The translations under genes and the position numbers were made by a program. Source: Microcoleaceae cyanobacterium (GTDB lineage: Bacteria; Cyanobacteriota; Cyanobacteriia; Cyanobacteriales; Microcoleaceae). From it: DNA of 30,379 nucleotides. The stretch covers positions 1 to 30,379 of the forward strand of contig JBOFUV010000021.1 of assembly GCA_051652765.1 (NCBI GenBank), in the 5' to 3' direction. Positions within the stretch are counted from its first letter, which is position 1. Each line of letters begins with the position of its first letter. The notes below the pieces were generated by a model, which had not been told where the DNA came from, did no database searches, and worked only from the letters and a program-made list of their open reading frames with translations. This document shows, one piece after another, positions 4,774 through 29,473 of this stretch.

Positions 4774-4792
4774 ATAAAATATTAGATCAGTA

Positions 4793-7476: not shown

Positions 7477-7478
7477 AG

Positions 7479-7503
7479 TTAGTCTCCATAATTAGTCTCC
7501 ATA
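7479..7503 (-). promoter_or_regulatory. Duplicated ribosome-binding region upstream of cheW
   Basis: Minus strand TATGGAGACTAA-T-TATGGAGACTAA-CT-ATG: a 12-bp direct repeat, each copy containing GGAG. Confidence 0.6.
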
Positions 7504-7526
7504 TAATAAACTACTCTAAAAAGCAA

Positions 7527-8960
7527 TTAGGAATTTATTATAGTTTCAATGGAAGCTGTAAGTTCAGCAACTGTAATTTCTCCAGCATATTCAACCTGAC
7601 TTGTATTCGGTAGTTTTCGCAGTAGCTCTAAAGCCGTTTTATAGAGCTTTAGAGCTTTTTCAAAATTATCTTCCTGTTCCAAAATCGCTGCCATTTTAGT
7701 ATATGCAAGGATGGCTGAAGATGAAAATCCAGCCAAATAAATAATCCGTTGGGCAAGTGTTTTAGCTTTTTCCATATCACCTGTTTCATCAGCAATGTTT
7801 AACATTAGATACCAGGGTAAAATAGAGAAGGAGTTAATCTGCAAGGCTTTTTCGCAGTGAAAATTAGCCTGGGAATATTGACCTAGATTGGCATGAACTT
7901 CAGCTAAAAGGCAGTGAATTTCAAAGTTATCAGAGTTATTTTTAATAACCTGATCGGCGGCTTGAATAGCCTCAGCATATCGTTTTTGTTGAACAAGTTG
8001 ATCAATAAACCTGGATTCAGTTGCCGGACTGAGTGAATGAGTTGCAAGAAAACTCTCTGTTCCTGGAGGACTGATCGGCTGAAAACTTGACTGAATAATA
8101 TCAGACTTTGGTGGGATGCTAGACGCTGAACTCGGCTCACGTTGGTAGATCACTGATTCCGGAAAAACCACAATTTTAAATGGATTATTAACAAGTTGTT
8201 GAATCTCAGCATGACCTGTGATCAAATATCCTTCTGGGCACAGAACTTGATGGAACTTGCAAATCACTTGATTAATATAGTTTTTATCAAAATAAATTAG
8301 GACATTTCTGCAAAGAATAAGGTCAAGATCTTGCAAAAGGTGAGCTTGACTAAAAGCATCTCCAATCAAGTTGAACTTGGAAAATTTAACAGAGTTTTGG
8401 ACTTTAGGATTGATTTTCCAGGAATCACCATAAGGGTGAAAATATTGGGCTTGAATATCAGGATCAACTCCTCGAAATGACCAAGAGTTATAGATTCCAG
8501 CTTGTGCCTTCTCCAGAACGAGGGGATTGATATCAGTACCCATAATAAGAATCTGCCATTGCTGCCAGTTTGGGAGAAGTTGTTGGAGCAGAATCGACAG
8601 GGAATAGGGTTCTTCTCCGGTGGAACATCCGGCACTCCAAATCCGCATAGTTTTTGTTAGTTTGCGTCGATCAATAATTTCAGGAAGAATAGTTTGCCCT
8701 AGGAGTTTAAATTGACCTGCATCTCGAAAAAAATAACTTTCAGCCGTTGTTAATAATGGAATCAATTGATTCCACTCCATTTGACTGGCTTGGAGATTGG
8801 CTTGGAGTAGAGTGTAGTAATCTTCCGAGCTAGATAGATTCAGCGCTCGAATTCGGGATTGGATTTTCTGAGAAAAACTTGCATAGTCTTTAGGTCGAAT
8901 GTAGCCGCCAATTCGATCCGAGACGAGCTGGATAAATTTTTTCAGCAGAATTTGATCCAT
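7527..8960 (-). CDS. cheR: CheR protein-glutamate O-methyltransferase with C-terminal TPR region
   Basis: ESYFFRD, RIWSAGCSTGEEPYS, GTDIN, DLILCRNVLIYF, GHAE; helical TPR-like C-terminus. Confidence 0.95.
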   Translation of the reverse strand: MDQILLKKFIQLVSDRIGGYIRPKDYASFSQKIQSRIRALNLSSSEDYYTLLQANLQASQMEWNQLIPLLTTAESYFFRDAGQFKLLGQTILPEIIDRRKLTKTMRIWSAGCSTGEEPYSLSILLQQLLPNWQQWQILIMGTDINPLVLEKAQAGIYNSWSFRGVDPDIQAQYFHPYGDSWKINPKVQNSVKFSKFNLIGDAFSQAHLLQDLDLILCRNVLIYFDKNYINQVICKFHQVLCPEGYLITGHAEIQQLVNNPFKIVVFPESVIYQREPSSASSIPPKSDIIQSSFQPISPPGTESFLATHSLSPATESRFIDQLVQQKRYAEAIQAADQVIKNNSDNFEIHCLLAEVHANLGQYSQANFHCEKALQINSFSILPWYLMLNIADETGDMEKAKTLAQRIIYLAGFSSSAILAYTKMAAILEQEDNFEKALKLYKTALELLRKLPNTSQVEYAGEITVAELTASIETIINS

Positions 8961-9152
8961 CAAAAATTTGAGGTTAACAGTCTAGAATGTCAGGATACAG
9001 AGCTTAGACGATTTTTTTATAGGTAACCTAGCTAAGGCCGCTGTTTGCGGTATCGTTATGTTTGCGTTCATCTACGAGATCACCGTATCGGATTATAATT
9101 TCTTTCAGATTTAAGACTCAAACGGCTGTTAATGATTGCGGGTGTAAGTGGG

Positions 9153-9848
9153 TTATTGTGCGATTAGCTTACGCCCTCCATATACAGAAAAATTGTAGTA
9201 TTTCCAAACAACATCAACTTCTGCAAAACCAATAGTTTGCAGCCAAGCTAATTGACTCATTAGACTAGCCGGATGATCTTCGTTGTAGTGCCGAGGTATC
9301 CACTTTTGTTCAATTTCCTCTACCGAAACTTGCAGACGCATGTACTCTTGCCATTTCTCCAGATAACGCTCTTGGAGATCAGAACTAGAGCCTAAAATCA
9401 CATCAGCATTATAAAAAACACCACCCAGATTTAGACAATCATAAATCTTTTTGTAAAGCCTAATTTTGTCATCATCACTCACTAAATGATGCAGAGCAAG
9501 TGAGGAGACAACGACATCATAGGTTGTATCGAACTCATAGTTTTCAAGATTTGCAAGCTGATAACGCAAATTATCTCCAGCATCACCAAGTTTTGCCTTT
9601 GCTATCTGCAACATCTTCTCCGCAATATCAACGCAGGTAATTTGAGCTTGAGGATAAAGACCTTTAATTCGTTGTGCAATTGTTCCTGTTCCACACCCAA
9701 GATCAACTACACGAATAGATTGGAACGGATTGAATGGCAGTACCGTAATGAGGGCATCAAGCATTTGCTCATAGTTAGGAATAAGGCGACGAATAGTTGC
9801 GTCGAACTCTCGAGCTTCTTCTTCAAAGTGTTGTTTAACCTTCTCCAC
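9153..9848 (-). CDS. Class I SAM-dependent methyltransferase (GTG start)
   Basis: VVDLGCGTG motif I, VDIAEKML, YDVVVSSLALHHL, LNLGGVFYNAD. Confidence 0.9.
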   Translation of the reverse strand: MEKVKQHFEEEAREFDATIRRLIPNYEQMLDALITVLPFNPFQSIRVVDLGCGTGTIAQRIKGLYPQAQITCVDIAEKMLQIAKAKLGDAGDNLRYQLANLENYEFDTTYDVVVSSLALHHLVSDDDKIRLYKKIYDCLNLGGVFYNADVILGSSSDLQERYLEKWQEYMRLQVSVEEIEQKWIPRHYNEDHPASLMSQLAWLQTIGFAEVDVVWKYYNFSVYGGRKLIAQ

Positions 9849-10009
9849 TATAACCCCTTTTCAGTTAACGACAAGCTTACATTGATGGCTAGTATGAAAT
9901 GCAGACAAGAACGCTGCAGATCTAGATGTACATTTAACAGTCTTTCCCGGATCTTACTTGTAGCAAATACCTGAGTATTTCATATCACTCTAACAGATGG
10001 CTTTGCAAC

Positions 10010-12770: not shown

Positions 12771-12979
12771 TATGCCACTTACAAGACTGTCTACTCTGTA
12801 ATTCGCAGTACCGATAGCAATCTGATGGGAACTGTGAGTGTGGAGTGGGTATCTTGCTCGCCTAGGCTAGAAGCCCACAAAACATCTCAATTACTGATTG
12901 CTATAATTCTTAAGAAATTTGGAACTGGCTTGATAGATTCAAACACGTTCTTAACTGTGATGCTTCAAAGAGTGGCATA
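12771..12979. mobile_element. Nested miniature repeats: outer 9-bp inverted repeat enclosing an inner MITE-like element (12814-12905)
   Basis: Outer TATGCCACT (12771) / AGTGGCATA (12971); inner ATAGCAATC...GATTGCTATA with core TGGAGTGGGTATCTTGCTCGC..GGCTAGAAGCC homologous to the 18191 and 21061 elements. Confidence 0.6.
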
Positions 12980-13067: not shown

Positions 13068-13823
13068 ATGAATACTACTCGTCTTGTGTCGGTTTCAGCC
13101 TTATCAAACTCAGAACGAGAAGCGCTCTATTTATTATTTTCTACACATTTTGAGGGAGTTAAACCAGAGATCTTTACGGCAGATCTAAATGAGAAAAATT
13201 GGGTGATCTTACTCGAATCCAAAGGAATCCTCAAGGGATTTTCTACCTTATTATTCTATACAACTCAATTTAAAAATACATCCCTAAATGTCATTTACTC
13301 TGGAGACACCATTGTTGACCCAAGTGCCTGGTCAAGTCCAGACCTTTCAAAAGCTTGGATCGCAACAGTGCAATATTTACAAACAACTGCTCCCGAGAAT
13401 AAACTCTATTGGTTATTGATTTCTTCTGGTTATCGCACCTACCGTTTTCTGCCAATATTCTGGAAAGCGTTTTTTCCTCGATATGATGTCACCACTCCAA
13501 CTTGGGCACAAGACTTAACTGAATTTTTGGCAAGCAATCGCTTTGGGCAATACTATGATCCAAGCACAGGAATTGTGCGGTTTCCTAGTCCTCAAATTTT
13601 GCGTTCTCTATTGCAGGGCATTCCCTCTGAGCGATTGCGTGACCCCCACATTTCATTTTTTCAAACCCAAAATCCAAGTCACTTTCAGGGTGATGAACTA
13701 GTTTGTTTAACAGAAATTTGTGAACCAAATCTCACTCCCGCAGGTCGAAGAATGTGGTTTAATCAATCTCTTAAATTGGAAATCTGCGATCGCCCCCAAG
13801 CCTCTGAACTTGCAATACTGTAA
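13068..13823 (+). CDS. Hypothetical protein, probable GNAT-like fold; first gene of the GH3/Rieske cluster
   Basis: 251-aa ORF, stop overlaps next ATG (TAATG); pattern LKGFSTL...YSGDTIVDPSAW...YWLLISSGYRTYRFL resembles acyltransferase-fold proteins (inference). Confidence 0.7.
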   Translation: MNTTRLVSVSALSNSEREALYLLFSTHFEGVKPEIFTADLNEKNWVILLESKGILKGFSTLLFYTTQFKNTSLNVIYSGDTIVDPSAWSSPDLSKAWIATVQYLQTTAPENKLYWLLISSGYRTYRFLPIFWKAFFPRYDVTTPTWAQDLTEFLASNRFGQYYDPSTGIVRFPSPQILRSLLQGIPSERLRDPHISFFQTQNPSHFQGDELVCLTEICEPNLTPAGRRMWFNQSLKLEICDRPQASELAIL

Positions 13824-14878
13824 TGGAAACTAACCTAAAATCATCTGAAACAGTTCAACACAATCAGACCATAATTTTTAATCATCCAAAAATTTTTAAT
13901 CATCCAAACTGCTTTATTGAAGGTTGGTACTGGGCACTTCCGTCCCATCACCTCAAACAAGGTCAGGTCAAACCTGTTACCCTGCAGGGACGGGAACTCG
14001 CAGTCTATAGAGGATTTGACGATCAAGTTGTAGCCCTAGATGCCTACTGTCCTCACATGGGAGCCCATCTTGCCGAAGGCAAAGTGGAAGAAAATAGTTT
14101 GCGCTGCTTATTTCATAACTGGAAATACGATGCTTTTGGTCACTGTATTGAAGTTCCCTGTTTAAAGAAAGCTTTACCCATTCAGATCAAAACCTGGCCA
14201 ACACTAGAAAAGTATGGTTTAGTGTGGGTTTGGACAGGAAAAACACCGCAGCAACCACTGCCATTTATTCCTGAATTGCAACATGAAACCTGTGAGACAG
14301 TGCTAGGTTCTCGCTTTATCAGAAACTGTCACCCTAATGTAGTGATGATTAACGCGATTGATGCCAATCACTTTAACACTGTTCATCAGTTGCCCTTAGA
14401 AATTGTATTTCAAGCCCAAGAATTTGACTACAATACTATTACTTTTAACAACATTACACGGGGAGGTGAAGCATCTAATTTCATTAAACTTATTCGACAA
14501 TTCTATCAAAATAAAGTGACTTATAAAATGTGCTATTGGCAAGGTAGTATTGGAACAGTTACATTGGGGCCAGACTTCCTACATTTTTATATCATGTTTG
14601 CTCTCCGGTTACTGCCAGACGGAAAAACAGAAGGTCAAACCATTCTGATGGCCAAAAAGCGTTCTGGCTTGATCGGGTGGGGATTGAACCAACTGATTTT
14701 GAAGTTAACACAATGGGTTGCAAGCTACTTCGCTAAAGGAGACACTCGAATTTTTCAAACGATTAAATTCAACCTCAAAACCCCAACTAAAGCAGACCAA
14801 TCTATCTTGCAATTTATTCAGCATGTGGAGCAGCAAAAAGCAATAGACTTTGAAACCTGGGAACCAATTCAATCCTGA
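13823..14878 (+). CDS. Rieske non-heme iron oxygenase 1
   Basis: CPH...CLFH Rieske ligands; NAIDANHFNTVH mononuclear Fe motif; distal Asp (KGDTRIF). Confidence 0.92.
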   Translation: METNLKSSETVQHNQTIIFNHPKIFNHPNCFIEGWYWALPSHHLKQGQVKPVTLQGRELAVYRGFDDQVVALDAYCPHMGAHLAEGKVEENSLRCLFHNWKYDAFGHCIEVPCLKKALPIQIKTWPTLEKYGLVWVWTGKTPQQPLPFIPELQHETCETVLGSRFIRNCHPNVVMINAIDANHFNTVHQLPLEIVFQAQEFDYNTITFNNITRGGEASNFIKLIRQFYQNKVTYKMCYWQGSIGTVTLGPDFLHFYIMFALRLLPDGKTEGQTILMAKKRSGLIGWGLNQLILKLTQWVASYFAKGDTRIFQTIKFNLKTPTKADQSILQFIQHVEQQKAIDFETWEPIQS

Positions 14879-14959
14879 GATAACTATTAAAGAGAATTAG
14901 ATTTGTGATGGATTACTGCCAAGTTCACCCTCATAAAAAATCAGCTAAAGAGAACTTAA

Positions 14960-15928
14960 ATGATGAATTATATGCCTACAGTTTCTGGATTTAACTTGTT
15001 GTCTGCCAACTCGAACCACAAACTTAATCGAGTTTTTAGATTGATATTTGGACACGAAGAAAGTGCTAATACTTATGAGTTAAATACGACTAGTCTTCCT
15101 TGGAATTCAACTTATTTTAGGCTAGATCAAGTAAGAATTTTTCAAGAATCAACTCTACAAGAACAACAGAGCATTCTCAAGTTAGCCAATCAAAGCCTGT
15201 TAGAAGAAGCTTACTTTATTGAAAAAGCTGGAATGGGATATATGGCAAAGATGGTGTTGCTAGCAGACACCCTAGAAGAACGAATGCTCTATAGCCAGTT
15301 CAGTGCTGATGAAGCAAATCATTTGGCTCAAATTCGACGATTTTTTCCAAGTACTGAACCAACTCAACCTAATAATATTTTTTTAAATTTTCTGGCAGAT
15401 TTGGTTGAGCACTCTGACAAAACAATTCTGTTATTCGTTCTGCAAGTTGTTCTAGAAGGTTGGAGTTTAAGCCATTATCGACAACTTGCAAAATATTGCC
15501 AAAACCCCCAGGTGGGTCAAATTTTCCAAAACTTTCTTCAGGCTGAAGCCTATCATCATACAACAGGAGTAGCTTTGTTTCAAAAACATCAAGTTTCTCT
15601 CACAAGTCAAACAATATTAGTCGAAATCTTGAGTCAATTTCTCAATATGATCCAGGCAGGCCCTCAAGGAATTCTGGCTACAATCAAGCAGGTTAAAGGA
15701 GATTTATCTCAAGCTCAAAAACTACAAATTCTCCAGGACTTAGATGCTAAGTCCCATAGCCAAAAGCGCTTGAATTTATTGCGATCATTAATGAATTCTT
15801 CAGCCAGTCAAATTGTTCAAGACCTAGAAGAACATAACTTGTTCCAGCCTTTTTCTCTGGAATACTGTGTCAGCTTGTCTAATCAAGCAATGATTTTGAA
15901 TCCAGCACAACATTCTCCGATTTCTTGA
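14960..15928 (+). CDS. Ferritin-like diiron protein
   Basis: FIEKAG, DEANH, VLEGW, AEAYH: two E...ExxH sets. Confidence 0.8.
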   Translation: MMNYMPTVSGFNLLSANSNHKLNRVFRLIFGHEESANTYELNTTSLPWNSTYFRLDQVRIFQESTLQEQQSILKLANQSLLEEAYFIEKAGMGYMAKMVLLADTLEERMLYSQFSADEANHLAQIRRFFPSTEPTQPNNIFLNFLADLVEHSDKTILLFVLQVVLEGWSLSHYRQLAKYCQNPQVGQIFQNFLQAEAYHHTTGVALFQKHQVSLTSQTILVEILSQFLNMIQAGPQGILATIKQVKGDLSQAQKLQILQDLDAKSHSQKRLNLLRSLMNSSASQIVQDLEEHNLFQPFSLEYCVSLSNQAMILNPAQHSPIS

Positions 15929-15955
15929 AGTTTTTAGATAATAGCTAAAATCACT

Positions 15956-17158
15956 ATGACCATCGCAAGCAACAAAACAAATACTCTGCTAGCACATTCA
16001 ACTATTTGTCGAAAACTAGAACTTAATTATAAGCGTAATCAGCAACAAGATCATACTCAACTTCTAGATCAAGCTGCCTCTGAATTTCGATATCAAGACT
16101 GTGAAAAGGAATATTGGAATCCCGAAGAATTTTCTCTCTTATATGGTACTCCACTGTGGGAGCAAGCGAGTCAATATCAGCGGACAATTCTCAATCAACT
16201 CTATTGGGTTGCCTATTATTCACAAATTATTTCGGCTGAAATTGCAACTATCTTTTTCAATCAAACGAGTGCTGCTGGACTCTATTCTCAAGAGGACTTT
16301 CGTTTAGTTTGTGACACTTTAGATTTAGAATCTGCTCAAGAACGGGCTCACATTAATGCATTTAAAGCTATTTCTGAACAGGTAGAAGAGAAACTATTTG
16401 GCAAACGCATTTTTACTTATCAAATGCGAACTCCATTTACAGAGACAATGATCTATACAGAGACCAATCGACTGAAACGAATCTGGAAAAATCTTCAACT
16501 TCAAAGCTTTGGTGTGCTCTCAGCAAATAGTCCCTTTCTAGCTTGTCAATACTTTACAGTGAGGGGTATACGAACCTTAAATGGCAAATTAGTTCAGCAT
16601 AAACTCAGCCAATATTATCAGAAACATCCTCAACCTGATCAAGCTCCAATTCCAGCCAAGATTTCATATTATCATTTTATGGATGAGAGCTTTCACTTTA
16701 ATAGCTCGACAATTCTATCCCATGAAGTTGTGAATTGCTTGCCTCAACCAAATTTTTTAGAAAAACAAATTTTCAACTTAGGATTACGAGGTTGCCAGCA
16801 AGATCACTATCATTTTTCCACTGCAATTAATGGGATTTTTTGGTATGATCCAGCACTTTACTCTGCAATTCATCAGATTTTATACTCAAGAATTTTCAAT
16901 ATGAATAATCGCGATGCAAAGGAGATCATACGACAATGCTTTACTCAAGAAACTGAAGGACTCCATCGCAGTTATCAAACTCATCGAGAAGCAATAGACT
17001 CTTACAAAGCCTACTTAGAAAAAGTCAACGATACTTGGAAAAGTAATCGAGAGATGTTAATTATGTCATCAAATTCAATTGCCAAATATCTATTGATTCA
17101 AAACCAGCAATTCTCTCGATTTAAACAAATAAATATTAATTCGGATTTATCCCAATGA
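15956..17158 (+). CDS. AurF-like (ferritin-like) diiron oxygenase
   Basis: SLLYGTPLWEQAS N-terminal pattern, SAEIA, QERAH, MDESFH. Confidence 0.78.
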   Translation: MTIASNKTNTLLAHSTICRKLELNYKRNQQQDHTQLLDQAASEFRYQDCEKEYWNPEEFSLLYGTPLWEQASQYQRTILNQLYWVAYYSQIISAEIATIFFNQTSAAGLYSQEDFRLVCDTLDLESAQERAHINAFKAISEQVEEKLFGKRIFTYQMRTPFTETMIYTETNRLKRIWKNLQLQSFGVLSANSPFLACQYFTVRGIRTLNGKLVQHKLSQYYQKHPQPDQAPIPAKISYYHFMDESFHFNSSTILSHEVVNCLPQPNFLEKQIFNLGLRGCQQDHYHFSTAINGIFWYDPALYSAIHQILYSRIFNMNNRDAKEIIRQCFTQETEGLHRSYQTHREAIDSYKAYLEKVNDTWKSNREMLIMSSNSIAKYLLIQNQQFSRFKQININSDLSQ

Positions 17159-17183
17159 TCAATCTATATAATCTACAAGAAAA

Positions 17184-18179
17184 ATGAGGATTTTCAATAA
17201 TTGGAATGTACTTGTAAAAGGTTGGTATATTGCTTGCCCCAGCCAAAAGCTATTAGAAGGTCAAGCAAAATCTATTACAATTTATGGAAAGAGAATCGTT
17301 TTGTTTCGGGGAGAAAATCGTCAAGTCCGAGCTTTAGATGCCTACTGTCCACATCTTGGAACTGATCTGGGTATTGGAACTGTTGAAGGGAATTGGATTC
17401 GATGTTTTTTTCATCATTGGGCTTTTGATGGTGCTGGGAACTGTCAAGAGATTCCTTGTCAATCTAGTATTCCAAAGAAAGCCCATTTACAGGCTTATGC
17501 AACGGATGAGAAATATGGATTTATCTGGGTTTATCCTGAAACAACTGCACCTGAAGGGGTCGCTGAATTTGATGAGTTAAAAGGAAAATCTTTGGTTTTT
17601 CAGCATGATAAAGCGTTTAAGCGTCACTGCCATCATCACATTTGTATGATGAATGGTATTGATGTTCAGCACCTTCAAACTGTGCATCAAATCAATATTA
17701 AGATGGAGTTACTTACTCAACAAAATCAATTGGGAAACGTCATTGATTTTACCCTTAAAGGTCAGTTTCCTAAAACAACATGGCAAGAACAAATTATTCA
17801 AAAAGTTTTAGGTGAACACTATGAGTATTCTATGCGATACGCTGACGGATGCCTAGGACTTCTAACGATTATGAAAAACGTGAAGCTGATTCCTCGACTC
17901 TATATGATCTATTCTTATTTGCCTCTCACTTCAGATCAAACTCAGATTCAACCTATTTATATTGCTGAGAGAAGACCTGGAATTTTAGGATGGATACTAA
18001 CTCAAGTTTTATTATTACTGACTCGAATTGCTTACTATGCTTTACGAGGGAAAGATGGCCAAGTCTATGACAATATTTGTTTTAATCCAAATGCCATTTT
18101 AGAAATTGACACTCCCTTGGTGAAATATATGAATTATGTCAATACACTAGAAATATCGAGTTGGTCAAGAAGTAACTAA
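17184..18179 (+). CDS. Rieske non-heme iron oxygenase 2
   Basis: CPH...CFFH; NGIDVQHLQTVH; distal Asp (KDGQVY); paralogous to 13823 (ALDAYCPH). Confidence 0.92.
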   Translation: MRIFNNWNVLVKGWYIACPSQKLLEGQAKSITIYGKRIVLFRGENRQVRALDAYCPHLGTDLGIGTVEGNWIRCFFHHWAFDGAGNCQEIPCQSSIPKKAHLQAYATDEKYGFIWVYPETTAPEGVAEFDELKGKSLVFQHDKAFKRHCHHHICMMNGIDVQHLQTVHQINIKMELLTQQNQLGNVIDFTLKGQFPKTTWQEQIIQKVLGEHYEYSMRYADGCLGLLTIMKNVKLIPRLYMIYSYLPLTSDQTQIQPIYIAERRPGILGWILTQVLLLLTRIAYYALRGKDGQVYDNICFNPNAILEIDTPLVKYMNYVNTLEISSWSRSN

Positions 18180-18190
18180 AATGTTTCTGA

Positions 18191-18299
18191 TGCAGCAATC
18201 TGATTTGAGATGTGGATATGGAGTGGGCATCTTGCCCGCACAGGCTACAATCCTGCACCATAGACATCTCCATCTCATAAATTATTACGGATAACTATA
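18191..18299. mobile_element. MITE-like dispersed repeat inside the cluster
   Basis: GCAGCAATCTGATTTG...GGAGTGGGCATCTTGCCCGC...CATCTCATAAATTATTACGGATAACTATA aligns with the reverse complement of 21061-21161. Confidence 0.7.
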
Positions 18300-18314
18300 G
18301 ATTTCTAGCTAATA

Positions 18315-18614
18315 ATGATGAACCAGAATTCTTGCATTATTCGATTTCCAGGGACAATCTATTCAGCCGTTACCTTAGAGAAGTTCGCTAATCTTTCTGA
18401 ACATTTAACTATACAAAACTCCCCAGTTTTATTTGGTTGTCGAACAGGAGTCTGTGGGATTTGTGTGGCTGTAATTCAAGGAAAAATTCCTCTAGCTAAT
18501 GTGGCTGAACAAGAAATTTTAGAGGTAATTGCCCCTGGAAATTCTCAGATTAGACTAGCCTGTCAAATTGATCTAACTCATGATATCGAAATCACTCCAT
18601 ACATTGAAAAATGA
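18315..18614 (+). CDS. 2Fe-2S ferredoxin
   Basis: FGCRTGVCGIC (C-x4-C-x2-C) and RLACQ; ATGA overlap with next gene. Confidence 0.92.
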   Translation: MMNQNSCIIRFPGTIYSAVTLEKFANLSEHLTIQNSPVLFGCRTGVCGICVAVIQGKIPLANVAEQEILEVIAPGNSQIRLACQIDLTHDIEITPYIEK

Positions 18615-19636
18615 CCAGATTTGAAGATTTTTGGTATGTTGTTGCAGAGAGTCGCCAACTTAAACCTAATGTTGCTTTGAGCCGAACAGTTTTGAATGAG
18701 TGGCTAGTTGTATTTCGAGGAAAAGATGGGCAGCCTGTGGTTTTGCGCGATCGCTGTATCCACCGCAATAGTCGTTTATCTGGTGGCATTGTCCAAGAGG
18801 GTAATTTACACTGCCCCTATCATGGCTGGGTTTATAACCAAAAAGGTCAAGTTATTGTCGTTCCCTCAGAAGGAGAAAACCCCAAAAATTTGGCTCAACA
18901 CTGTACTCAATATTATGAAACTCAGGAACAAGACGGCTATGTTTATGTGCGGTTAGCTCTTAATCCAATTGACAAATTTCACCCTTTTAAAATGCCACAT
19001 TATGGTGAACTAAACTGGGAAACTGTACGAGTTATTAATCGGTTTCAAAACACCCTGACTAACTGTATTGAAAACTTTATTGATATTCCTCATACGGTCT
19101 CTGTACATCCTGGAATTTTTCGCAAGCCGTGTCAGCAAAGGTTAGAAATGACTGTTACTAGACGACAAGGATCTGTTATTGCAGAATATCAGAATGAAAG
19201 CAGAAATCTGGGCTGGTATACTAAATTTCTGAACAGTCAAAAGCAAGAAGTTCGACACATTGATCAATTCTTGATGCCAAATGTTACCAATGTTGAATAT
19301 GACATCAGTAAGAATAGACAATTATTTATTACTAGTCAATCTATTCCAGAGACAGAAAACTCAACCCTAGTTTATACGGATGTTACCTACAACTATGGAA
19401 TTTGGAATAAAATAGCACGGCCCTTCGTTCATTGGACAGCTCAGAAAATTATTAGACAAGATATTAATATTCTAAATATTCAGAAGCAGGTAATTGATAA
19501 GTATGGAACTCATTTTACTCATACTCCTGCCGATACAATTCATGTTTTTGTAGAGTCTATTTTCCGTGCTTTAGTCCAGGGAAAAGATCCAGAAGAACTT
19601 TCAGAACAATCTGCTCAAATCAGTTTTTGGGTTTAA
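18611..19636 (+). CDS. Rieske non-heme iron oxygenase 3 (VanA/CAO-like architecture)
   Basis: DRCIHR...CPYHGW; ENFIDIPHTVSVH; IIRQD. Confidence 0.92.
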   Translation: MTRFEDFWYVVAESRQLKPNVALSRTVLNEWLVVFRGKDGQPVVLRDRCIHRNSRLSGGIVQEGNLHCPYHGWVYNQKGQVIVVPSEGENPKNLAQHCTQYYETQEQDGYVYVRLALNPIDKFHPFKMPHYGELNWETVRVINRFQNTLTNCIENFIDIPHTVSVHPGIFRKPCQQRLEMTVTRRQGSVIAEYQNESRNLGWYTKFLNSQKQEVRHIDQFLMPNVTNVEYDISKNRQLFITSQSIPETENSTLVYTDVTYNYGIWNKIARPFVHWTAQKIIRQDINILNIQKQVIDKYGTHFTHTPADTIHVFVESIFRALVQGKDPEELSEQSAQISFWV

Positions 19637-19662
19637 TCTAAAGTTAAAGTAATGAATAGATT

Positions 19663-20382
19663 ATGATCATTTTAATCACATTCTGGAGTTTAATTTTAGT
19701 TACAGTTATTGATTCTAAGCAATGGAAAATACTTTGTGAAAAAAGCATACATGATTGGATTCTAGATGTTATGGGATTATGTATTCAAGGTATCGTAATT
19801 CCTTTATTACAATTAGTTTTGGTCTATCAAATTTATCAAGTTCTAGTTCCTCAGTTGCATCATGTTCTATTTTTATCTCCAGTCTGGCAGTTTTTGATTA
19901 GTTTTATTGCGATTGATTACCTATATTATTGGAACCATCGCTTGCTGCACAATCATTGGCTTTGGCCACTACATCAAGTGCATCATACAGTTACTCAATT
20001 TGACGTTGTCGGAACCTCTCGAAATAGCCTTTGGACAAGCTTCTTTATTCTCTATCTCTGGATTCATGCTCTGTTTATTTATTTACTTCAAGATGCTAAT
20101 GGTTATTTATTTGGAGTCAGTTTAACAGCCTCTTTTGATCTCTGGCGACATAGTTCAATCACTTTTGCAGGAGACTTACATCATATTCTTGCTAGGTTTT
20201 TAATCTTGCCCCAGGATCATGCTTTGCACCATAGCACTTCTGCTACTGTTCAAAACTATGGAGCCAACCTAAAGCTTTGGGATCAGATTCATGGTACATA
20301 CACCGAAGCCAAGGACTTTCCCAAACATTTGGGAGTTAAAATTCAGCTCAAACTGTGGCAAAAAATCCTTTTACCATTCTAA
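19663..20382 (+). CDS. Sterol desaturase / fatty-acid hydroxylase family membrane diiron enzyme
   Basis: His boxes YWNHRLLH, HQVHH, HALHH; NYG..L.LWDQIHGT; several TM helices. Confidence 0.9.
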   Translation: MIILITFWSLILVTVIDSKQWKILCEKSIHDWILDVMGLCIQGIVIPLLQLVLVYQIYQVLVPQLHHVLFLSPVWQFLISFIAIDYLYYWNHRLLHNHWLWPLHQVHHTVTQFDVVGTSRNSLWTSFFILYLWIHALFIYLLQDANGYLFGVSLTASFDLWRHSSITFAGDLHHILARFLILPQDHALHHSTSATVQNYGANLKLWDQIHGTYTEAKDFPKHLGVKIQLKLWQKILLPF

Positions 20383-20397
20383 TTTACATATCATAAT

Positions 20398-21024
20398 ATG
20401 ACTATTCTTAGTAGAATTTTGTCACTTTTTCCAGCTCTAATAATATTGATTTCTGCAGCGTTATTTTTATGGCTACTTTATGCTCCTAGAGTCCTTGTTT
20501 TTATAGCTCTCATCTTTTTAATTTATGGCTTTCCATTATTAGTCTATCGAGTCCATCACTATTTTTATCCTGTTAAATCTGGCATCAGTTACTTACAAGA
20601 TTGTGGGTATTCTCCCTGGTGGGGCAGTCATCAAATTCAAGCGATTTACATTGCCTTTCCGATTTTTGAAACAGTTTTGAGATTAATTCCAGGGGCTTTT
20701 TCTTGTTGGTTAAGATTATGGGGATCGCAGATTGGCAAGGATGTTTGCTGGACATCTCAGTTGGAAATTGCTGATCGGGGATTGTTAGAAATTGGCGATC
20801 GCGTTGTGTTTGGTCATGGAGTTGGGCTGTATTCTCACATTATCAAACCCAAAAAGCAAAACTTAATGCTTTATATTAAACCGATTAAGATTGGCAGTGA
20901 TACTTTTTTAGGAGCCTGGAATCATATTGGCCCAGGAGTAAAAATTGAGTCCAGTAGTTACCTTCCTGTCGCAACTCATCTTTATCCAAATCGAAAAATA
21001 AATGAGTCTATTCATACTAAATAA
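20398..21024 (+). CDS. Membrane-anchored hexapeptide-repeat (left-handed beta-helix) acyltransferase
   Basis: N-terminal TMs; LRLWGSQIGKDV, LLEIGDRVVFG, IKIGSDTFLG..IGPGVKI. Confidence 0.82.
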   Translation: MTILSRILSLFPALIILISAALFLWLLYAPRVLVFIALIFLIYGFPLLVYRVHHYFYPVKSGISYLQDCGYSPWWGSHQIQAIYIAFPIFETVLRLIPGAFSCWLRLWGSQIGKDVCWTSQLEIADRGLLEIGDRVVFGHGVGLYSHIIKPKKQNLMLYIKPIKIGSDTFLGAWNHIGPGVKIESSSYLPVATHLYPNRKINESIHTK

Positions 21025-21060
21025 TTAGCAAAAATTAGAGTGTTAATGTCTTGTCAACAA

Positions 21061-21161
21061 GTAGCAATCCCAAATAATTCATGAGATGGTGTTGTGCAAT
21101 TTTCCAACTTGTGCGGTCAAGATATCCACTTCACACCCACACTGCAAATCAGATTACTATA
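21061..21161. mobile_element. MITE-like dispersed repeat, inverted relative to the 18191 copy
   Basis: GTAGCAATCCCAAATAAT...CAAATCAGATTACTATA; reverse complement aligns along its length with 18191-18299. Confidence 0.7.
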
Positions 21162-21213
21162 GGCAAATTACCCGCCCTCAAGCTTTGCAACTTAAACCAG
21201 ATTATTACATACT

Positions 21214-22746
21214 ATGATTTCTGTATTTGTTCAGTTATTTGGAAAGTTCTTATCCCCTGTTGCTCAACAATTTAATCAAGCTTTGATGAATCCTAAAGCG
21301 GCACAAAGAGCTGTACAATTAGAGCTAATCAACGGATTAATTCAAACAGAGTATGGAAAGTTTTATAATATTAATGGTGTTGAAGATTGGCATAGGCTTC
21401 CAATTGTAGATTATCCAGAGATTGAATCCTGGATTCATCGCCAACAAAATAGTCACGCTCATCTGATCACACCGCACCCAATTTTATTCTATGAAACAAC
21501 CTCTGGAAGTACGGGCAGTAACAAGCTAATTCCCTATACTCCAGCCTTGAAATCTTCCTTTAATCGAATGTTTTGTATCTGGGCTTATGATTTAATCAAA
21601 AATGGCCCAAAGTTCTCAACGGGTCAAGTTTATATGTGTATTTCCCCTACATTTGCCCGTGAAGGTGATTCTAAGATTAAAGGTTTTGAAAAGAATTTGA
21701 AAGATGATTCAGAATATCTAAATTGGGGGTTGAAATTAGTATTAAAACCTTTTTTAGTTGCTTTAAATGGGCTGGGTTCTGCACGAAATGCTATGGAGTT
21801 TAAGCATCAACTGGCAATTAATTTAATCTTGGCACAACGATTAGAAATCATCTCAATTTGGAGCCCAAGTTTTTTAATCACTATTCTGAATTATATTCAA
21901 GAAAATCGTGAGATTCTTTGTCAGAAACTTCAAACTCGGCTTTCATTGAAAAGGGTTCAGATTCTCTCTAGTCAGAGAATTGATTGGGAAAAACTTTGGC
22001 CTCATTTAAAGCTGATTTCCTGCTGGAATAGTGCCATGGCTGCGGACTCAGCCAAACATTTAAACTCCTATTTTCCCACGGTGATGGTTCAGGGAAAAGG
22101 GTTATTAGCAACTGAAGCTCCACTGACAATTCCACTCATTGCTGCTCAGGGTTATATACCTGTTTTACAGGAAGTCTTTTTTGAGTTTGAGGATAGTCAA
22201 GGTCAAATTTATCACCTTGACCAGATTCAAACTGGAAAAGTTTACTCTATGATTGTGTCTCAAAAAGGGGGATTATACCGCTATCGAATTGGTGATCGCG
22301 TCAGTGTTAGTCATTTTTATCAACATACGCCCTGTTTAGAATTTCTGGGGCGAACTCAAACCACTACTGACTTAGTCGGAGAAAAATTACATTGTGATTT
22401 TGTTGCCGCTGTTCTGGCAAGTTTATCGCTTCAAGCGGCAACATTTAAAACATTAATTCCAGTTCGACAGCCGATGCCTCACTATCTTTTACTCCTCGAT
22501 CAAACATCCCAGTCAGTGGAGGAGATCGCTCAACAACTCGACCAAGCTTTGATGCAATCCTATCACTATCGCTATGCTCGTCAATTGGGTCAACTGGCTC
22601 CCGTCACAGTTCAAGTCTCCTCTCAAATTCCTGAAATTTTAGCAACTCAGCGACTCACTTCAGGAACTCGATGGGGTGATGTCAAGTTTCCACTTCTAAC
22701 CTTAAATCCTTGGGAAACAGAAACAGAATTGATCAGTCTCAATTAG
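21214..22746 (+). CDS. GH3-family acyl-adenylate-forming amide ligase
   Basis: TTSGSTG..KLIPYT P-loop, GLLATEA, GGLYRYRIGDRV, FLGR, DLVGEKL. Confidence 0.9.
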   Translation: MISVFVQLFGKFLSPVAQQFNQALMNPKAAQRAVQLELINGLIQTEYGKFYNINGVEDWHRLPIVDYPEIESWIHRQQNSHAHLITPHPILFYETTSGSTGSNKLIPYTPALKSSFNRMFCIWAYDLIKNGPKFSTGQVYMCISPTFAREGDSKIKGFEKNLKDDSEYLNWGLKLVLKPFLVALNGLGSARNAMEFKHQLAINLILAQRLEIISIWSPSFLITILNYIQENREILCQKLQTRLSLKRVQILSSQRIDWEKLWPHLKLISCWNSAMAADSAKHLNSYFPTVMVQGKGLLATEAPLTIPLIAAQGYIPVLQEVFFEFEDSQGQIYHLDQIQTGKVYSMIVSQKGGLYRYRIGDRVSVSHFYQHTPCLEFLGRTQTTTDLVGEKLHCDFVAAVLASLSLQAATFKTLIPVRQPMPHYLLLLDQTSQSVEEIAQQLDQALMQSYHYRYARQLGQLAPVTVQVSSQIPEILATQRLTSGTRWGDVKFPLLTLNPWETETELISLN

Positions 22747-24742: not shown

Positions 24743-26062
24743 TTAATTCCACAACTGTCGCCACCAAGGTTGAGGTTCTCCGTTGATCAATTGAACTTGA
24801 GGGCGGATATCCTGAGAACTCCAACCCGTGAGTCGGGCCAGGTTTTGAATTTCCTGTTCCTGCCGTGCTCGAACTGATGCTTTATAACTTTGGGCTTCAC
24901 TGCAATTCATCGTCCCAGTGTAGGGATGGTTAATCACATATCGTCCCTGAAACAGCTCTCGATTCCCCGTTGTCTGAAAATTCAAGTCCTCTGGAAACGT
25001 GTCACGGGCATAACGAATATGAATCCGAGTGATAAAAACGTTCGTGGGTTGCCCTGGATTGAGCCAAAAAACTCCTGCCTGTTTGAGTTCCTCTGGAGTC
25101 AGGGGATCGGCTGAACAGGGATCACAGCTTCCCATATCCCAGGCATACTCTACGAAAGCAACTTTTTTCTGTTCTCGCTGATGGGCCGTTTTGAACAGGG
25201 CCGTGTAAAACTCGGGAAACTTTTGCTGCACAAATTCTGGAACCTCCACATCCGAAGGAATCTTCGCCGTGCGATAGTTCGCCAGTTCCGCTTGTCCCTT
25301 GGGAGACAACAAATAAACGATTAAATCCTGCTCCCCTTGAGCATTGATCATGCCCAAACGAATGGGCAACATAAATCGCGGGGATTCATAAGCCATCATT
25401 AGAGGCCGCAGGGATTGGAACCCACTTTTATCAAACTCGGCCAAGTTCACCTTGGCAACGAAAAACTTTAACCCTTGGCGGATATAAGGTTGCAACAACT
25501 GGGCGGCACCTGGGGGAATTTTGTACCCACTCTGAACTAGCCAGGTTTCTAGGCCATCTGACTCCTTGGCACTGAGAATAACAATGTCATATTCCCCCAC
25601 GGTAAAGCGGGATTCCACCGTAACGCCCAAACTGCGATCGCTCTCACTGTTCCGCGCTTCAGGAGCCGACTGAAACACCCCATCTCCTGACCCACGGGTT
25701 GTAGGTCTAGGATAAATTTCACAGGGATTGGAGTCAAAGTACTCCACCAGTCGAGGGGCACTAAACGCATCAATCCGCTGAATGATTTTGGGCTCTGCGA
25801 CTCGGACTTGATCCTCCTTCAAAACCACTGGAACCGGCACCACCAACGCAAAATCCTTGGCCGCGCCTTTGTAGTCGTTGGCCATGGTCAGTACTGTGCG
25901 ATCGCCATCCCGAGCAATAATCACTTGGGACGCTTGATTGTACAAACTAGCATCCGCCTTGCCCACATAAAAGCCACAAAAGGCCAGAGCCGGAGTTGCC
26001 AATAAAAACACGGTCGCAATTGCCCCTAAAAGAGCAACAAACAGTCGAGCTAGATGTTTCAT
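24743..26062 (-). CDS. DUF2330-family exported protein
   Basis: Signal peptide ending ALA-FCGFYV; DFALVVPVP, VGEYDIVILSA, EYAWDMGSCDPC. Confidence 0.85.
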   Translation of the reverse strand: MKHLARLFVALLGAIATVFLLATPALAFCGFYVGKADASLYNQASQVIIARDGDRTVLTMANDYKGAAKDFALVVPVPVVLKEDQVRVAEPKIIQRIDAFSAPRLVEYFDSNPCEIYPRPTTRGSGDGVFQSAPEARNSESDRSLGVTVESRFTVGEYDIVILSAKESDGLETWLVQSGYKIPPGAAQLLQPYIRQGLKFFVAKVNLAEFDKSGFQSLRPLMMAYESPRFMLPIRLGMINAQGEQDLIVYLLSPKGQAELANYRTAKIPSDVEVPEFVQQKFPEFYTALFKTAHQREQKKVAFVEYAWDMGSCDPCSADPLTPEELKQAGVFWLNPGQPTNVFITRIHIRYARDTFPEDLNFQTTGNRELFQGRYVINHPYTGTMNCSEAQSYKASVRARQEQEIQNLARLTGWSSQDIRPQVQLINGEPQPWWRQLWN

Positions 26063-26116
26063 GTCAATGCACTTAAATCCATTTTTTCAAGTGAGGAATT
26101 TCTGTTTAAGGACTTT

Positions 26117-26983
26117 TTAACCCTTCTCTAGTCCTTGCTCCAAACCCGGTAACTGCCAGATAAACCGAGGCGCTGCCCAAATCTCATCCAGCAGTATCGT
26201 CAAGGGAGAGAGACTGAATAACGCCCAAAACATCGCCGTTGAGAGGAAGAATTGATGCTGCAAAATAAACGTTAATCCCGCTAGAGCAACCGCCCAAATG
26301 ACTCGACCTTGAGGCGCATTGGGAATTGACCGGGGATCGGTCAGCATAAATAGAGCGAACAATAGCAAGCTACCACTCATTAATTGATGACTATAAACAT
26401 CCCAACTCCAGCCCAACCAAGCCGAACGTATCACTTCCAAGCCTGCGTAGGCGGCGAGAAAGGTTGCGGACGTATCCCATCGCCCCACCTGCTTTAACAC
26501 CAAACCCCCGGCACCCAAAAACAGCAAAATGTACCACCAGTCCGTACCCCACTGCCCCGGAGAAACCCAAGCATCAGAGGTGAAGGTGAGGACAGCGATA
26601 ATCCCGAAATTGGCTGGATTAAACCAGTGCTTGCCTTGATAACGAAACAAAAACTTACTGGCGATCGCGCAGCTTCCAGCTAAAACCATGGTTAGAGGAG
26701 TATTTGCCCGCAGCAAGAGACACAAGCCCAAGGCGGTAATCAAGGCACTGCGCCAGGATGAGCCCTGCTGTCTTATGGAGTCTTGGCCGGATTCTGAAGC
26801 AGCTTGAGCAGATCTGTTCAGCCACATCTGTTGTAGACGTTCAGCCATACCCTGAGTTAGTAAACAGGTACAAAGAGTAACGATCACGAGATCTGGCCGC
26901 ACTGTCCAATCGCGAGTGCCAATGCCCAGAATCAAAAACGTTGTGAGGAAAAGAATCTGTGGATTGCGGGCATCTTTGATCAT
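26117..26983 (-). CDS. RnfD/NqrB-like integral membrane protein (stand-alone)
   Basis: Polytopic; SALITALGL, ASKF...KHWFNPANFG, FALFMLTDPRS. Confidence 0.8.
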   Translation of the reverse strand: MIKDARNPQILFLTTFLILGIGTRDWTVRPDLVIVTLCTCLLTQGMAERLQQMWLNRSAQAASESGQDSIRQQGSSWRSALITALGLCLLLRANTPLTMVLAGSCAIASKFLFRYQGKHWFNPANFGIIAVLTFTSDAWVSPGQWGTDWWYILLFLGAGGLVLKQVGRWDTSATFLAAYAGLEVIRSAWLGWSWDVYSHQLMSGSLLLFALFMLTDPRSIPNAPQGRVIWAVALAGLTFILQHQFFLSTAMFWALFSLSPLTILLDEIWAAPRFIWQLPGLEQGLEKG

Positions 26984-28321: not shown

Positions 28322-28413
28322 TCTTAACGGCTTGCGCTTCATCGGACGGCAATGGAGTTTGTAACACAATTAATTGGGTTTGCCGCCGTTCCATGTGCAA
28401 GCGCTTGTTAGGC
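28322..28413 (-). mobile_element. Integron attC site 1 (closes the brnTA cassette)
   Basis: Minus strand R'' GCCTAAC (contains the brnA TAA stop) ... R' GTTAAGA; 92 bp imperfect palindrome. Confidence 0.75.
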
Positions 28414-28686
28414 TTTGTGCTGAGTTTTGTTGTTCTCTATATATTGGCGTAAAACATCGTTAATTAGAGTTTTATACTGTTCTCCTTGAGCCTGAAACCA
28501 CTGCTTCACATCGGGATCAAGCTGAACTAGGTTATGGGCTTGATCTGCTGGAACACGTAAAGTTGCTCTTTCAAAAAATTCATCTGTCAGCGGTGGAATA
28601 TCTGAATAATCAATATTCTCTTCTGACCTTGACTCTAAAGCTGCCCAGTTAGTACGAGAGGTACTGCTCAAATCGTTTCTGCTCAT
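28408..28686 (-). CDS. brnA: BrnA-family antitoxin
   Basis: TNWAAL, IDYSDIPPLTDEFF, LDPDVKQWF...YKTLINDVLRQY; overlaps the brnT 3' end. Confidence 0.9.
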   Translation of the reverse strand: MSRNDLSSTSRTNWAALESRSEENIDYSDIPPLTDEFFERATLRVPADQAHNLVQLDPDVKQWFQAQGEQYKTLINDVLRQYIENNKTQHKA

Positions 28687-29128: not shown

Positions 29129-29473
29129 TTAAAGGTACAAGATTGTTCGTAGTCCCTCATCTACCTCTTCCTGCAAATGCTCTGATAATGAACCAATACG
29201 TTCAACCAGAAATGTTTTATCGACTGTGAGAATTTGAGATACGTTAGCCACTGAATCCTTAGATAAGCCTGTTACTCTTTGTGGCAACAATACATTGCCT
29301 GGAGCTTCTGCCAACTGAATATTTGAAGTGATAATTACAACAATGACCGTACTGATACAACTTTGAGTAAAAGTATCATCCTGAACCACCAAAACAGGAC
29401 GACGATAGCCAGGTTCTGAGCCTATCGGATCGGGTAAATTCGCCCACCAGATCTCTCCCCGATACATTACCAA
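29129..29473 (-). CDS. mazF: PemK/MazF-family endoribonuclease toxin
   Basis: RGEIWWANL.DP.GSEPGYRRPVLVVQ, ITSN, GLSKDSVANVSQILTVDK. Confidence 0.93.
   Translation of the reverse strand: MVMYRGEIWWANLPDPIGSEPGYRRPVLVVQDDTFTQSCISTVIVVIITSNIQLAEAPGNVLLPQRVTGLSKDSVANVSQILTVDKTFLVERIGSLSEHLQEEVDEGLRTILYL

What the first reader, a model, noticed from the sequence alone, without database searches (positions are those of the whole stretch)
13068..22746. Ten-gene PKS/NRPS-free oxidative biosynthetic cluster built around a GH3 amide ligase
Seen: ten co-directional genes, two junctions translationally coupled (TAATG 13821-13825, ATGA 18611-18614): GNAT-like, Rieske, ferritin-like diiron, AurF-like diiron, Rieske, ferredoxin, Rieske, desaturase/hydroxylase, hexapeptide acyltransferase, GH3. 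Six are iron oxygenase-type enzymes with their metal ligands apparently intact. Established: GH3 proteins adenylate carboxylic acids and join them to amines; Rieske and AurF-like enzymes take electrons from ferredoxins. Inference: a pathway for a heavily oxidised acyl-amide or lipid metabolite. With no scaffold synthase or carrier protein, rule-based cluster finders may miss it. I cannot assign it to any pathway I know.
Basis: partly seen in the sequence, partly recalled or inferred. Interest (0 to 1): 0.85.

Follow-up and report, generated by a model that had tools for sequence, protein, structure and literature searches.

The report
Orphan oxidised amide-lipid gene cluster
This cyanobacterium carries an intact ten-gene cluster of a type catalogued in 2021 with no known product; it likely joins a free fatty acid to an amine and then oxidises (possibly chlorinates) the resulting amide lipid with six iron enzymes.

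Summary
In detail: ten co-directional intact genes (13068-22746), both overlaps, metal ligands conserved. The cluster type is not new. The 'AurF-like' gene is a CylC homologue (published cylC primers would give the expected 299-bp product) and the layout matches the orphan 'Rieske-containing' clusters of Eusebio et al. 2021 and fed6 'cluster f' (2014). My seven literature searches found no product. All ten genes occur in 38 of 55 fully flanked related loci. In 301 genomes of the phylum, all 27 with this CylC clade also carry the GH3 and GNAT orthologues, even where the genes are scattered. The GNAT-GH3 pair also occurs without the CylC-like gene, beside other tailoring enzymes, so it is likely the scaffold-building core. 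The CylC-like protein keeps 8 of 9 halogenase residues; the ninth (NocO E252, needed for chlorination) is Gln in 87 of 87 cluster copies and Glu in 10 of 10 carrier-linked relatives, so chlorination is open. Best reading: a carrier-free pathway to an oxidised fatty-acyl amide lipid. This copy has the lowest GC in its genome, likely acquired horizontally. The scan found this cluster before in other genomes.

The parts
13068..13823 (+). g1: GNAT-fold acyltransferase of an unnamed family (251 aa); likely acyl-transfer partner of GH3
   Evidence: No Pfam hit; 17 of 118 homologues hit Acetyltransf_9 weakly; model pLDDT 93.7; Foldseek AAC(2')-Ia E 9.5e-7, 149 chains at E<=0.001; VIA Z 12.3 NatD, LasI 11.3, RpaI 11.2, FeeM 10.6, subfamily not resolved
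13823..14878 (+). g2: Rieske non-heme iron oxygenase 1 (351 aa)
   Evidence: PF00355 E 6.6e-23; C76/H78/C95/H98, D180/H183/H188, D307 conserved; distant PDB relatives SxtDIOX, SxtT, KshA
14960..15928 (+). g3: ferritin-like diiron protein with a 2-His/4-Glu site (322 aa); predicted desaturase or hydroxylase
   Evidence: Ferritin_2 E 5.8e-5, below cut-off; E88, E118xxH121, E166, E196xxH199 conserved; Atlas neighbours include acyl-ACP desaturase clusters at 0.92-0.93 (lead only)
15956..17158 (+). g4: CylC-like dimetal-carboxylate enzyme of the Rieske/PriA clade (400 aa); Gln214 where carrier-linked relatives have Glu
   Evidence: ExxQExxH (125-132) and HxxDExxH (240-247); published cylC primers CF, DF, DR match, DF-DR span 299 bp as published; 1147 homologues; tree
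17184..18179 (+). g5: Rieske oxygenase 2 (331 aa), 32% identical paralogue of g2; the most often moved or missing oxygenase, often paired with an Mpo1-like gene elsewhere
   Evidence: PF00355; ligands C55/H57/C74/H77, D160/H163/H168, D291
18315..18614 (+). g6: [2Fe-2S] ferredoxin (99 aa); by gene order the fed6 of 'cluster f'
   Evidence: Fer2 E 2.4e-6; C42/C47/C50/C83; gene order as in PMC4284462
18611..19636 (+). g7: Rieske oxygenase 3 (341 aa), VanA/PobA-type C-terminal domain
   Evidence: PF00355 and VanA_C E 2.1e-8; C49/H51/C68/H71, D158/H161/H166, D284
19663..20382 (+). g8: membrane fatty-acid hydroxylase/sterol-desaturase family enzyme (239 aa)
   Evidence: PF04116 E 9.5e-22; His boxes H92/H96, H104/H107/H108, H186/H189/H190; OlsE model 51.8 bits vs cut-off 475; hydrophobic segments
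20398..21024 (+). g9: hexapeptide-repeat acyltransferase-like protein with two N-terminal hydrophobic segments (208 aa)
   Evidence: Hexapep E 1.1e-6; WcaF-like and Pls terminal-domain models far below cut-off; maltose O-acetyltransferase E 5.5e-5
21214..22746 (+). g10: GH3-family acyl-acid amido synthetase (510 aa)
   Evidence: GH3, GH3_M, GH3_C; motifs TTSGSTGSNK, GLLATE, GLYRYRIGD correspond to the three GH3 nucleotide-binding motifs of PMC12493201; JAR1 E 1.5e-12; OlsH model 36.6 bits vs cut-off 620

Best explanation
The ten genes travel as one unit and likely make an oxidised fatty-acyl amide lipid without a carrier protein: the GH3 enzyme is predicted to activate a free fatty acid with ATP and join it to an amine, the GNAT and the membrane hexapeptide enzyme likely add further acyl groups, and six iron enzymes, likely fed by the cluster's ferredoxin, would hydroxylate, desaturate or possibly chlorinate the product. 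Shown: genes, folds, intact ligands, co-occurrence, membership of the published Rieske/CylC cluster type. From known biochemistry: GH3 adenylation and amide formation, with bacterial OlsH using free fatty acids; ferredoxin dependence of Rieske and CylC-type enzymes. Inferred: fatty-acid substrate, order of steps, the amine (unknown). For g4 I put O2-dependent C-H or N-oxidation at about 60% and chlorination at about 40%.
For: All ten genes in 38 of 55 fully flanked loci, same order in 16 of 55; flanking genes in 0-1 of 55. GH3 and GNAT orthologues in 27 of 27 genomes with the close g4 clade among 301 searched, including G167, G105, G129 where GH3, ferredoxin, g9 and g5 lie elsewhere in the genome. 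All 36 genomes with a g1 homologue have a GH3; in 7 of the 9 that lack the close g4 clade the two lie within 5 kb, beside radical-SAM/B12 enzymes, a fatty-acid desaturase or P450, Rieske and MMPL genes. Lipid-pointing parts: FA_hydroxylase g8; Mpo1-like 2-hydroxy-fatty-acid dioxygenase in 31 of 80 loci, 30 of them with g5; MMPL and SDR genes in some distant loci. Precedent: OlsH makes N-acyl ornithine from free fatty acid and ATP (PMC12493201). Eusebio et al. also proposed action on fatty-acid intermediates.
Against: No metabolite, enzyme assay or transcript. g10 is not an OlsH orthologue (36.6 vs 620 bits) and g8 not OlsE, so the lipid precedent is by analogy; plant GH3 proteins use aryl and indole acids. 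The Rieske proteins' nearest solved relatives act on alkaloids, steroids and aromatics. Only g8 and g9 have clear membrane segments. In 17 of 55 fully flanked loci at least one gene is not within 10 kb. The sampled genomes are kin, so the co-occurrence counts are not independent.
Confidence: 0.55

Rival explanations
1. Chlorolipid pathway: g4 is a true halogenase acting on a free or lipid-bound acyl chain, giving a chlorinated amide lipid or a cryptic chloride that is displaced later. This is a variant of the best explanation in which halogenation is the central step.
For: g4 keeps ExxQExxH and HxxDExxH, including the Gln that distinguishes CylC from AurF; all six predicted iron ligands of NocO are kept; Wang et al. 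judged E252 not to be a metal ligand and saw Gln there in a subset of homologues.
Against: NocO E252A is inactive and this site is Gln in 87 of 87 cluster copies against Glu in 10 of 10 carrier-linked copies (also Gln in 80 of 80 metagenome loci). The clade lies on a long branch (1.54 changes per column, support 93/93). CylC and NocO were assayed on ACP-bound substrates and no ACP is in the cluster. Glu-to-Gln was not tested in that paper's listed variants.
Confidence: 0.25
2. Small-molecule natural product or signal: GH3 joins an aryl or short acid to an amine and the oxygenases build an N-oxidised or ring-hydroxylated, non-lipid product.
For: Rieske relatives include aromatic and alkaloid oxygenases; g4 has a weak AurF N-oxygenase hit; g1 resembles AHL synthases as much as other GNATs; plant GH3 substrates are aryl acids.
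Against: g4 lacks AurF's Asp (has Gln128) and the Glu196-equivalent; membrane FA-hydroxylase and membrane-anchored g9 are core; accessory Mpo1-like and MMPL genes point to lipids.
Confidence: 0.12
3. Tailoring of hopanoids or sterols: the oxygenases oxidise a triterpenoid to an acid that GH3 then conjugates.
For: Best NCBIfam hit of all three Rieske proteins is SdmA 4-beta-methylsterol monooxygenase, far below cut-off; KshA among PDB relatives; sterol-desaturase family g8; G000 has a triterpene cyclase.
Against: No SQHop_cyclase_C match in 12 of 27 cluster-bearing genomes and only weak partial matches in 2 more (completeness 90-100%).
Confidence: 0.04
4. Catabolic or detoxifying cassette that conjugates and oxidises an outside acid.
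For: Rieske oxygenases are common in degradation; patchy distribution and low GC suggest mobility.
Against: No ring-cleavage enzyme, transporter, reductase or regulator among the ten genes or among the recurring neighbours I inspected in 87 loci; three acyl-transfer enzymes build bonds; hosts are mostly phototrophs.
Confidence: 0.04

Closest known systems
'Rieske-containing' and 'PriA-containing' CylC-homologue clusters (Eusebio et al. 2021, PMC8406957; abstract, passages and Results part 1 of 2 read; supplement not readable)
   Same: Single CylC homologue, three Rieske proteins (2-4 described), sterol-desaturase family protein, ferritin-like protein, acyltransferases, no carrier or activating enzyme of the FAAL type, no known product, missed by antiSMASH/CORASON; primers match g4.
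   Different: The main text never mentions GH3 (0 occurrences) or the GNAT fold; whether Fig. S4 shows them could not be seen. Here GH3 and GNAT are shown to be core members.
fed6 'cluster f' of cyanobacteria (Cassier-Chauvat and Chauvat 2014, PMC4284462; passages read)
   Same: Order hypothetical, Rieske, hypothetical, hypothetical, fed6, PobA-like Rieske, sterol desaturase, hypothetical matches g1-g4, g6-g9.
   Different: The window adds g5 and GH3. Match rests on gene order; I did not compare g6 with a named Fed6 sequence. fed6 was reported essential in 2014 but fully deleted in a later study.
CylC/NocO dimetal-carboxylate halogenases (Wang et al. 2025, PMC12101540; text parts 1-2 of 5, supplement part 4 of 5 read)
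   Same: Eight of nine active-site residues, both motifs, ferredoxin nearby.
   Different: About 26-38% identity to carrier-linked homologues, about 60 residues shorter, Gln for NocO Glu252, no FAAL/ACP/PKS neighbours; no activity reported for this clade in what I read.
OlsH/OlsI GH3-dependent ornithine-lipid pathway of Singulisphaera acidiphila (PMC12493201; passages and section 8 read)
   Same: Bacterial GH3 that makes an N-acyl amide from free fatty acid and ATP, paired with a second acyltransferase; OlsE-family hydroxylase tailoring.
   Different: g10 scores far below the OlsH cut-off; no alpha/beta-hydrolase OlsI inside the cluster; GNAT and hexapeptide enzymes and six oxygenases instead; amine unknown.
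AurF p-aminobenzoate N-oxygenase
   Same: Ferritin-like fold family, 3-His core; public annotation of g4 homologues.
   Different: Pfam AurF below cut-off; Gln at AurF Asp135 and at Glu196 positions; the annotation is a misleading transfer.

Membership tests
Rieske-containing CylC-homologue cluster (Eusebio 2021) | One CylC homologue | tested here: met
   Primers CF, DF, DR match g4 with 2, 1, 1 mismatches; DF-DR span 16259-16557 = 299 bp as published; 29% match over 93% to the Stanieria sulfotransferase-linked homologue; one copy in G000
Rieske-containing CylC-homologue cluster (Eusebio 2021) | Two to four Rieske-domain proteins | tested here: met
   Three
Rieske-containing CylC-homologue cluster (Eusebio 2021) | Sterol-desaturase family protein; no carrier protein nearby | tested here: met
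   g8 PF04116; no PP-binding hit among the 14 proteins scanned
Rieske-containing CylC-homologue cluster (Eusebio 2021) | CylC homologue falls in the Rieske/PriA clade, sister to carrier-linked homologues | tested here: met
   20 cluster rows on one side of a branch, 93/93 (just under the starred threshold); carrier-linked plus one other 96/91; 31 rows chosen by me
fed6 cluster f | Gene order ho-rieske-ho-ho-fed6-pobA-des-ho | tested here: met
   g5 inserted before the ferredoxin
fed6 cluster f | Ferredoxin is a sequence orthologue of ssl2559 | not tested
   No named Fed6 sequence was compared
CylC-type halogenase | ExxQExxH and HxxDExxH motifs | tested here: met
   E125-H132 and H240-H247, invariant in 87 of 87 (definition)
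CylC-type halogenase | Glu at NocO 252 / CylC 283 (needed for NocO activity; Gln in a subset of homologues) | tested here: not met
   Gln214 in 87 of 87; Glu in 10 of 10 carrier-linked homologues. Placed by alignment to unnamed carrier-linked homologues; spacing to the next His is 26 here against 27 in the named enzymes
CylC-type halogenase | Cognate ACP/FAAL supplying a tethered acyl substrate | tested here: not met
   None in the cluster or among recurring neighbours inspected in 87 loci
CylC-type halogenase | Chlorination activity | not testable with these tools
   Needs assay
AurF N-oxygenase | 3-His/4-carboxylate site with Asp135 and Glu196; Pfam cut-off | tested here: not met
   Gln128, Gln214; 21.7 bits vs 29.6
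GH3 acyl-acid amido synthetase | Three GH3 domains and three nucleotide-binding motifs | tested here: met
   motif II reads LLATE against plant YGSSE
OlsH lyso-ornithine lipid synthetase | NF052613 cut-off; OlsI partner | tested here: not met
   36.6 vs 620 bits; the DUF900 hydrolase next door is convergent and in 0 of 80 loci
GNAT acyltransferase (g1) | GNAT fold | tested here: met
N-acyl amino acid synthase / AHL synthase subfamily (g1) | Closer to FeeM/LasI than to acetyltransferases | tested here: inconclusive
   LasI Z 11.3, RpaI 11.2, FeeM 10.6, best NatD 12.3; no row stands out

The most novel reading that the evidence does not exclude
GH3 + this unnamed GNAT (+ the membrane hexapeptide enzyme) is an undescribed carrier-free machine for a widespread class of bacterial amide lipids, fitted with exchangeable tailoring cassettes: iron oxygenases here, B12 radical-SAM or P450 enzymes elsewhere. 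Within it the Gln-variant CylC clade is either the first dimetal halogenase working on untethered substrate or a diiron enzyme with different chemistry.
Probability: 0.35. Interest if true: 0.8.

Novelty: new member of a known kind. Interest (0 to 1): 0.45.

Why it matters
This is the most common context of CylC homologues in the 2021 survey (36 of 95 clusters) and still has no product in the literature I could search. Finding it would add a likely new bacterial lipid class and tell whether a carrier-independent C-H halogenase exists, a property the survey's authors called important for biocatalysis. The analysis narrows the test: assay GH3 and GNAT first, look for an N-containing lipid, and check the Gln/Glu site. 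This particular copy is ordinary for its class, though complete and compact, so suited to heterologous expression.

Tried and rejected
Single-sequence fold of g1 failed (pLDDT 36); repeated with an alignment. No PDB sequence match for g4 or the g1 profile. PF28091, carried by g4 homologues, is not in the Pfam copy here, so its name is unknown. Promoter/terminator scan uninformative: 47 promoter-like sites against 31.4 +/- 5.6 in shuffles, on both strands and mostly inside genes; 8 terminator-like against 6.9. Expression: no RNA holder listed; the one DNA run gave only short scattered contigs; neither is evidence. Flanking genes rejected as members: adenylate cyclase 1 of 80 loci; DUF900, DUF2330, RnfD-like 0 of 80. 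Hopanoid/sterol substrate largely rejected. fed6 essentiality not used as support, since the two reports conflict. Literature searches with no product found; PMC13436972 irrelevant (GH31); bioRxiv 2026.09.06.749771 does not mention Rieske or GH3; the library lacks most subscription papers. Supplement of PMC8406957 unreadable. Plasmid search gave only four distant g4 homologues. No complex prediction was run.
Full report
1. Observation. Gaps run from -4 to 189 nt. Pfam confirms three Rieske proteins, a Fer2 ferredoxin, an FA_hydroxylase, a hexapeptide protein and a three-domain GH3; the two diiron proteins hit Ferritin_2 and AurF only below cut-off; gene 1 has no hit. No NCBIfam model reaches its cut-off. 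Alignments with 59-81 homologues per gene show the Rieske cluster ligands and 2-His/Asp mononuclear sites of g2, g5 and g7, a 2-His/4-Glu diiron site in g3, four ferredoxin cysteines, three His boxes in g8 and the GH3 nucleotide motifs, all conserved. An alignment-based model of g1 (pLDDT 93.7) has a GNAT fold (Foldseek E 9.5e-7; VIA Z up to 12.3); acetyltransferases, AHL synthases and FeeM score alike, so the subfamily is open.

2. Boundaries and origin. The block has 37.4% GC against 46.1% for the genome; 1 of 800 same-sized windows is as low. Only 1 of 16 other genomes of the same family carries g4. Flanking genes are not conserved: adenylate cyclase 1 of 80 loci, the three downstream genes 0 of 80. 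Horizontal acquisition as a block is the likely reading (inference); no mobile-element gene borders it.

3. Conservation. In the 80 best genome loci (of 141 found) all ten genes are present in 42; among the 55 with 10 kb on both sides, all ten in 38, in the window's order in 16, GH3 in 43. In 301 genomes drawn from the phylum, 36 hit g4; 27 of them at 54% identity or more over the full length. All 27 also have the GH3 orthologue (38-57% outside G000; in G028 as two adjacent stretches) and the g1 orthologue. In G167, G105 and G129 the GH3, ferredoxin, g9 and g5 orthologues lie far from g4 yet are all kept, so the linkage is more than hitch-hiking. These genomes are kin, so the counts are not independent. 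Rearranged versions occur in metagenome contigs of 36-64% GC (34 of the 80 loci were displayed).

4. What g4 is. PMC8406957 (passages; Results part 1 of 2) describes 'Rieske-containing' clusters, 36 of 95, with one CylC homologue, two to four Rieske proteins and usually a sterol desaturase, no carrier protein and no known product, and related 'PriA-containing' loci with dispersed genes. Three of its degenerate primers match g4 once each in the window, and DF-DR span exactly the published 299 bp. Locus L092 has the PriA-type layout. The gene order also matches fed6 'cluster f' (PMC4284462). So the cluster type is known. PMC12101540 gives nine NocO residues, all needed for chlorination. g4 has E95, Q128, E129, H132, H240, D243, E244, H247. 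The ninth position is Gln214 in 87 of 87 cluster-type homologues and Glu in 10 of 10 carrier-linked homologues from L081-L089 and L100 (FAAL/ACP/PKS neighbours checked by Pfam for L081 and L082, and read from the ORF list for the rest); it is Gln in 80 of 80 metagenome loci, some of which duplicate genome loci. The named CylC and NocO sequences were not retrieved; the register rests on the alignment and differs by one residue in spacing. A tree of 31 chosen rows puts the 20 cluster-type rows on one side of a long branch (1.54; 93/93). g4 therefore passes the motif rule used to call dimetal halogenases (bioRxiv 2026.01.20.700248) but differs at one essential second-sphere residue and has no carrier. 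It is not AurF. Halogenation is open.

5. Is it built around GH3? Largely yes, with the GNAT. All 36 genomes with a g1 homologue have a GH3. Nine lack the close g4 clade; in seven of these g1 lies within 5 kb of a GH3 (G083, G022, G025, G061, G088, G114, G140), in two they are on different contigs (G070, G073). Their neighbours are radical-SAM/B12 enzymes (L111, which also has a g9 homologue; L112), a fatty-acid desaturase (L110), or P450, Rieske, a second GNAT and MMPL (L106, a second module in G055). This fits a scaffold module of acyl-transfer enzymes with exchangeable tailoring genes. I saw this in my own calls; earlier scan notes on other genomes say the same and are not independent support.

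6. Likely mechanism. OlsH, a bacterial GH3, makes N-acyl ornithine from free fatty acid, ATP and Mg (PMC12493201). g10 is not its orthologue but keeps the motifs. I infer: GH3 forms a fatty-acyl amide; g1 and membrane-anchored g9 add acyl groups; g8 and g3 hydroxylate or desaturate; three Rieske enzymes and g4 oxidise further, reduced through g6 by a reductase encoded elsewhere. An Mpo1-like 2-hydroxy-fatty-acid dioxygenase accompanies the cluster in 31 of 80 loci, mostly about 400 bp upstream of g5, which points to fatty acids; it was not found in G000 (tblastn with two homologues). A triterpenoid substrate is unlikely: no cyclase match in 12 of 27 cluster genomes. Against: no experimental data, and the enzymes' solved relatives act on many non-lipid substrates.

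7. Physiology from the literature, tied to this cluster only through the gene-order match of g6 to fed6: reported essential in Synechocystis in 2014, fully deleted later, induced by phosphate limitation. Phosphate induction would suit a phosphorus-free lipid, but that paper ascribes it to an upstream operon, so it is weak. sll0266 and three other homologues that may be of this clade were among 12 screened for expression, of which only NocO was taken further.

8. Verdict. Real, intact, a new member of a published orphan cluster type; product not found in seven literature searches. The open question is good and testable, the instance ordinary. Interest 0.45.

Noticed in passing
window 12816-12875, 18194-18297 (+), 21062-21158 (-): Three copies of a 60-110 nt dispersed intergenic repeat (70-78% alike), upstream of the cluster and in its two largest gaps; the middle copy gives 60 blastn hits across the genome. 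Possibly a MITE-like element that entered after the cluster arrived.
   Followed up: partly
L101:3899-5881 (G167): The g5 (Rieske 2) orthologue is split by a roughly 950-bp insertion that encodes two transposase-like ORFs; it is whole in G105 and G129. A natural g5 mutant, and a caution for choosing a test strain.
   Followed up: partly
L041:5563-5982 and 30 further loci: Mpo1-like gene directly upstream of the g5 orthologue in many Nostoc clusters: an accessory two-gene module.
   Followed up: partly
window 24743-26983 (-); L106:4386-7196: DUF2330 + RnfD-like pair downstream of the cluster is not conserved beside it, but RnfD-like/FG-GAP/ASPIC fusion proteins sit next to the GNAT-GH3 module in L106, L107, L110 and L116. 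Link unexplained, perhaps chance.
   Followed up: no
window 2248-9848 (-): Chemotaxis-like operon (CheA-like kinase with receiver, MCP, double CheW, CheR with TPR) plus a methyltransferase, read from the translations; 6001-10000 is also low in GC (38%).
   Followed up: no
L020, L024, L037, L043, L047, L057, L061, L064, L071, L072 (between ferredoxin and Rieske 3): In Nostoc the gap between the ferredoxin and Rieske 3 often holds unrelated passengers (toxin-antitoxin-like PIN genes, SMI1/KNR4-like and deaminase-like ORFs by appearance), probably the 'two hypothetical genes' of cluster f'.
   Followed up: no
L090, L091 (G105, G129): A second, shorter CylC homologue (31% to g4, Glu at the variable site) beside a ketosynthase-III gene, a glycosyltransferase-like gene and ABC transporter genes; looks like a dialkylresorcinol (bartoloside-type) cluster.
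   Followed up: no
window 28408-28686, 29129-29703 (-): Small toxin-antitoxin-like genes (BrnA-like; MazF/PemK-like with a ribbon-helix-helix partner), named from recall of the translations.
   Followed up: no
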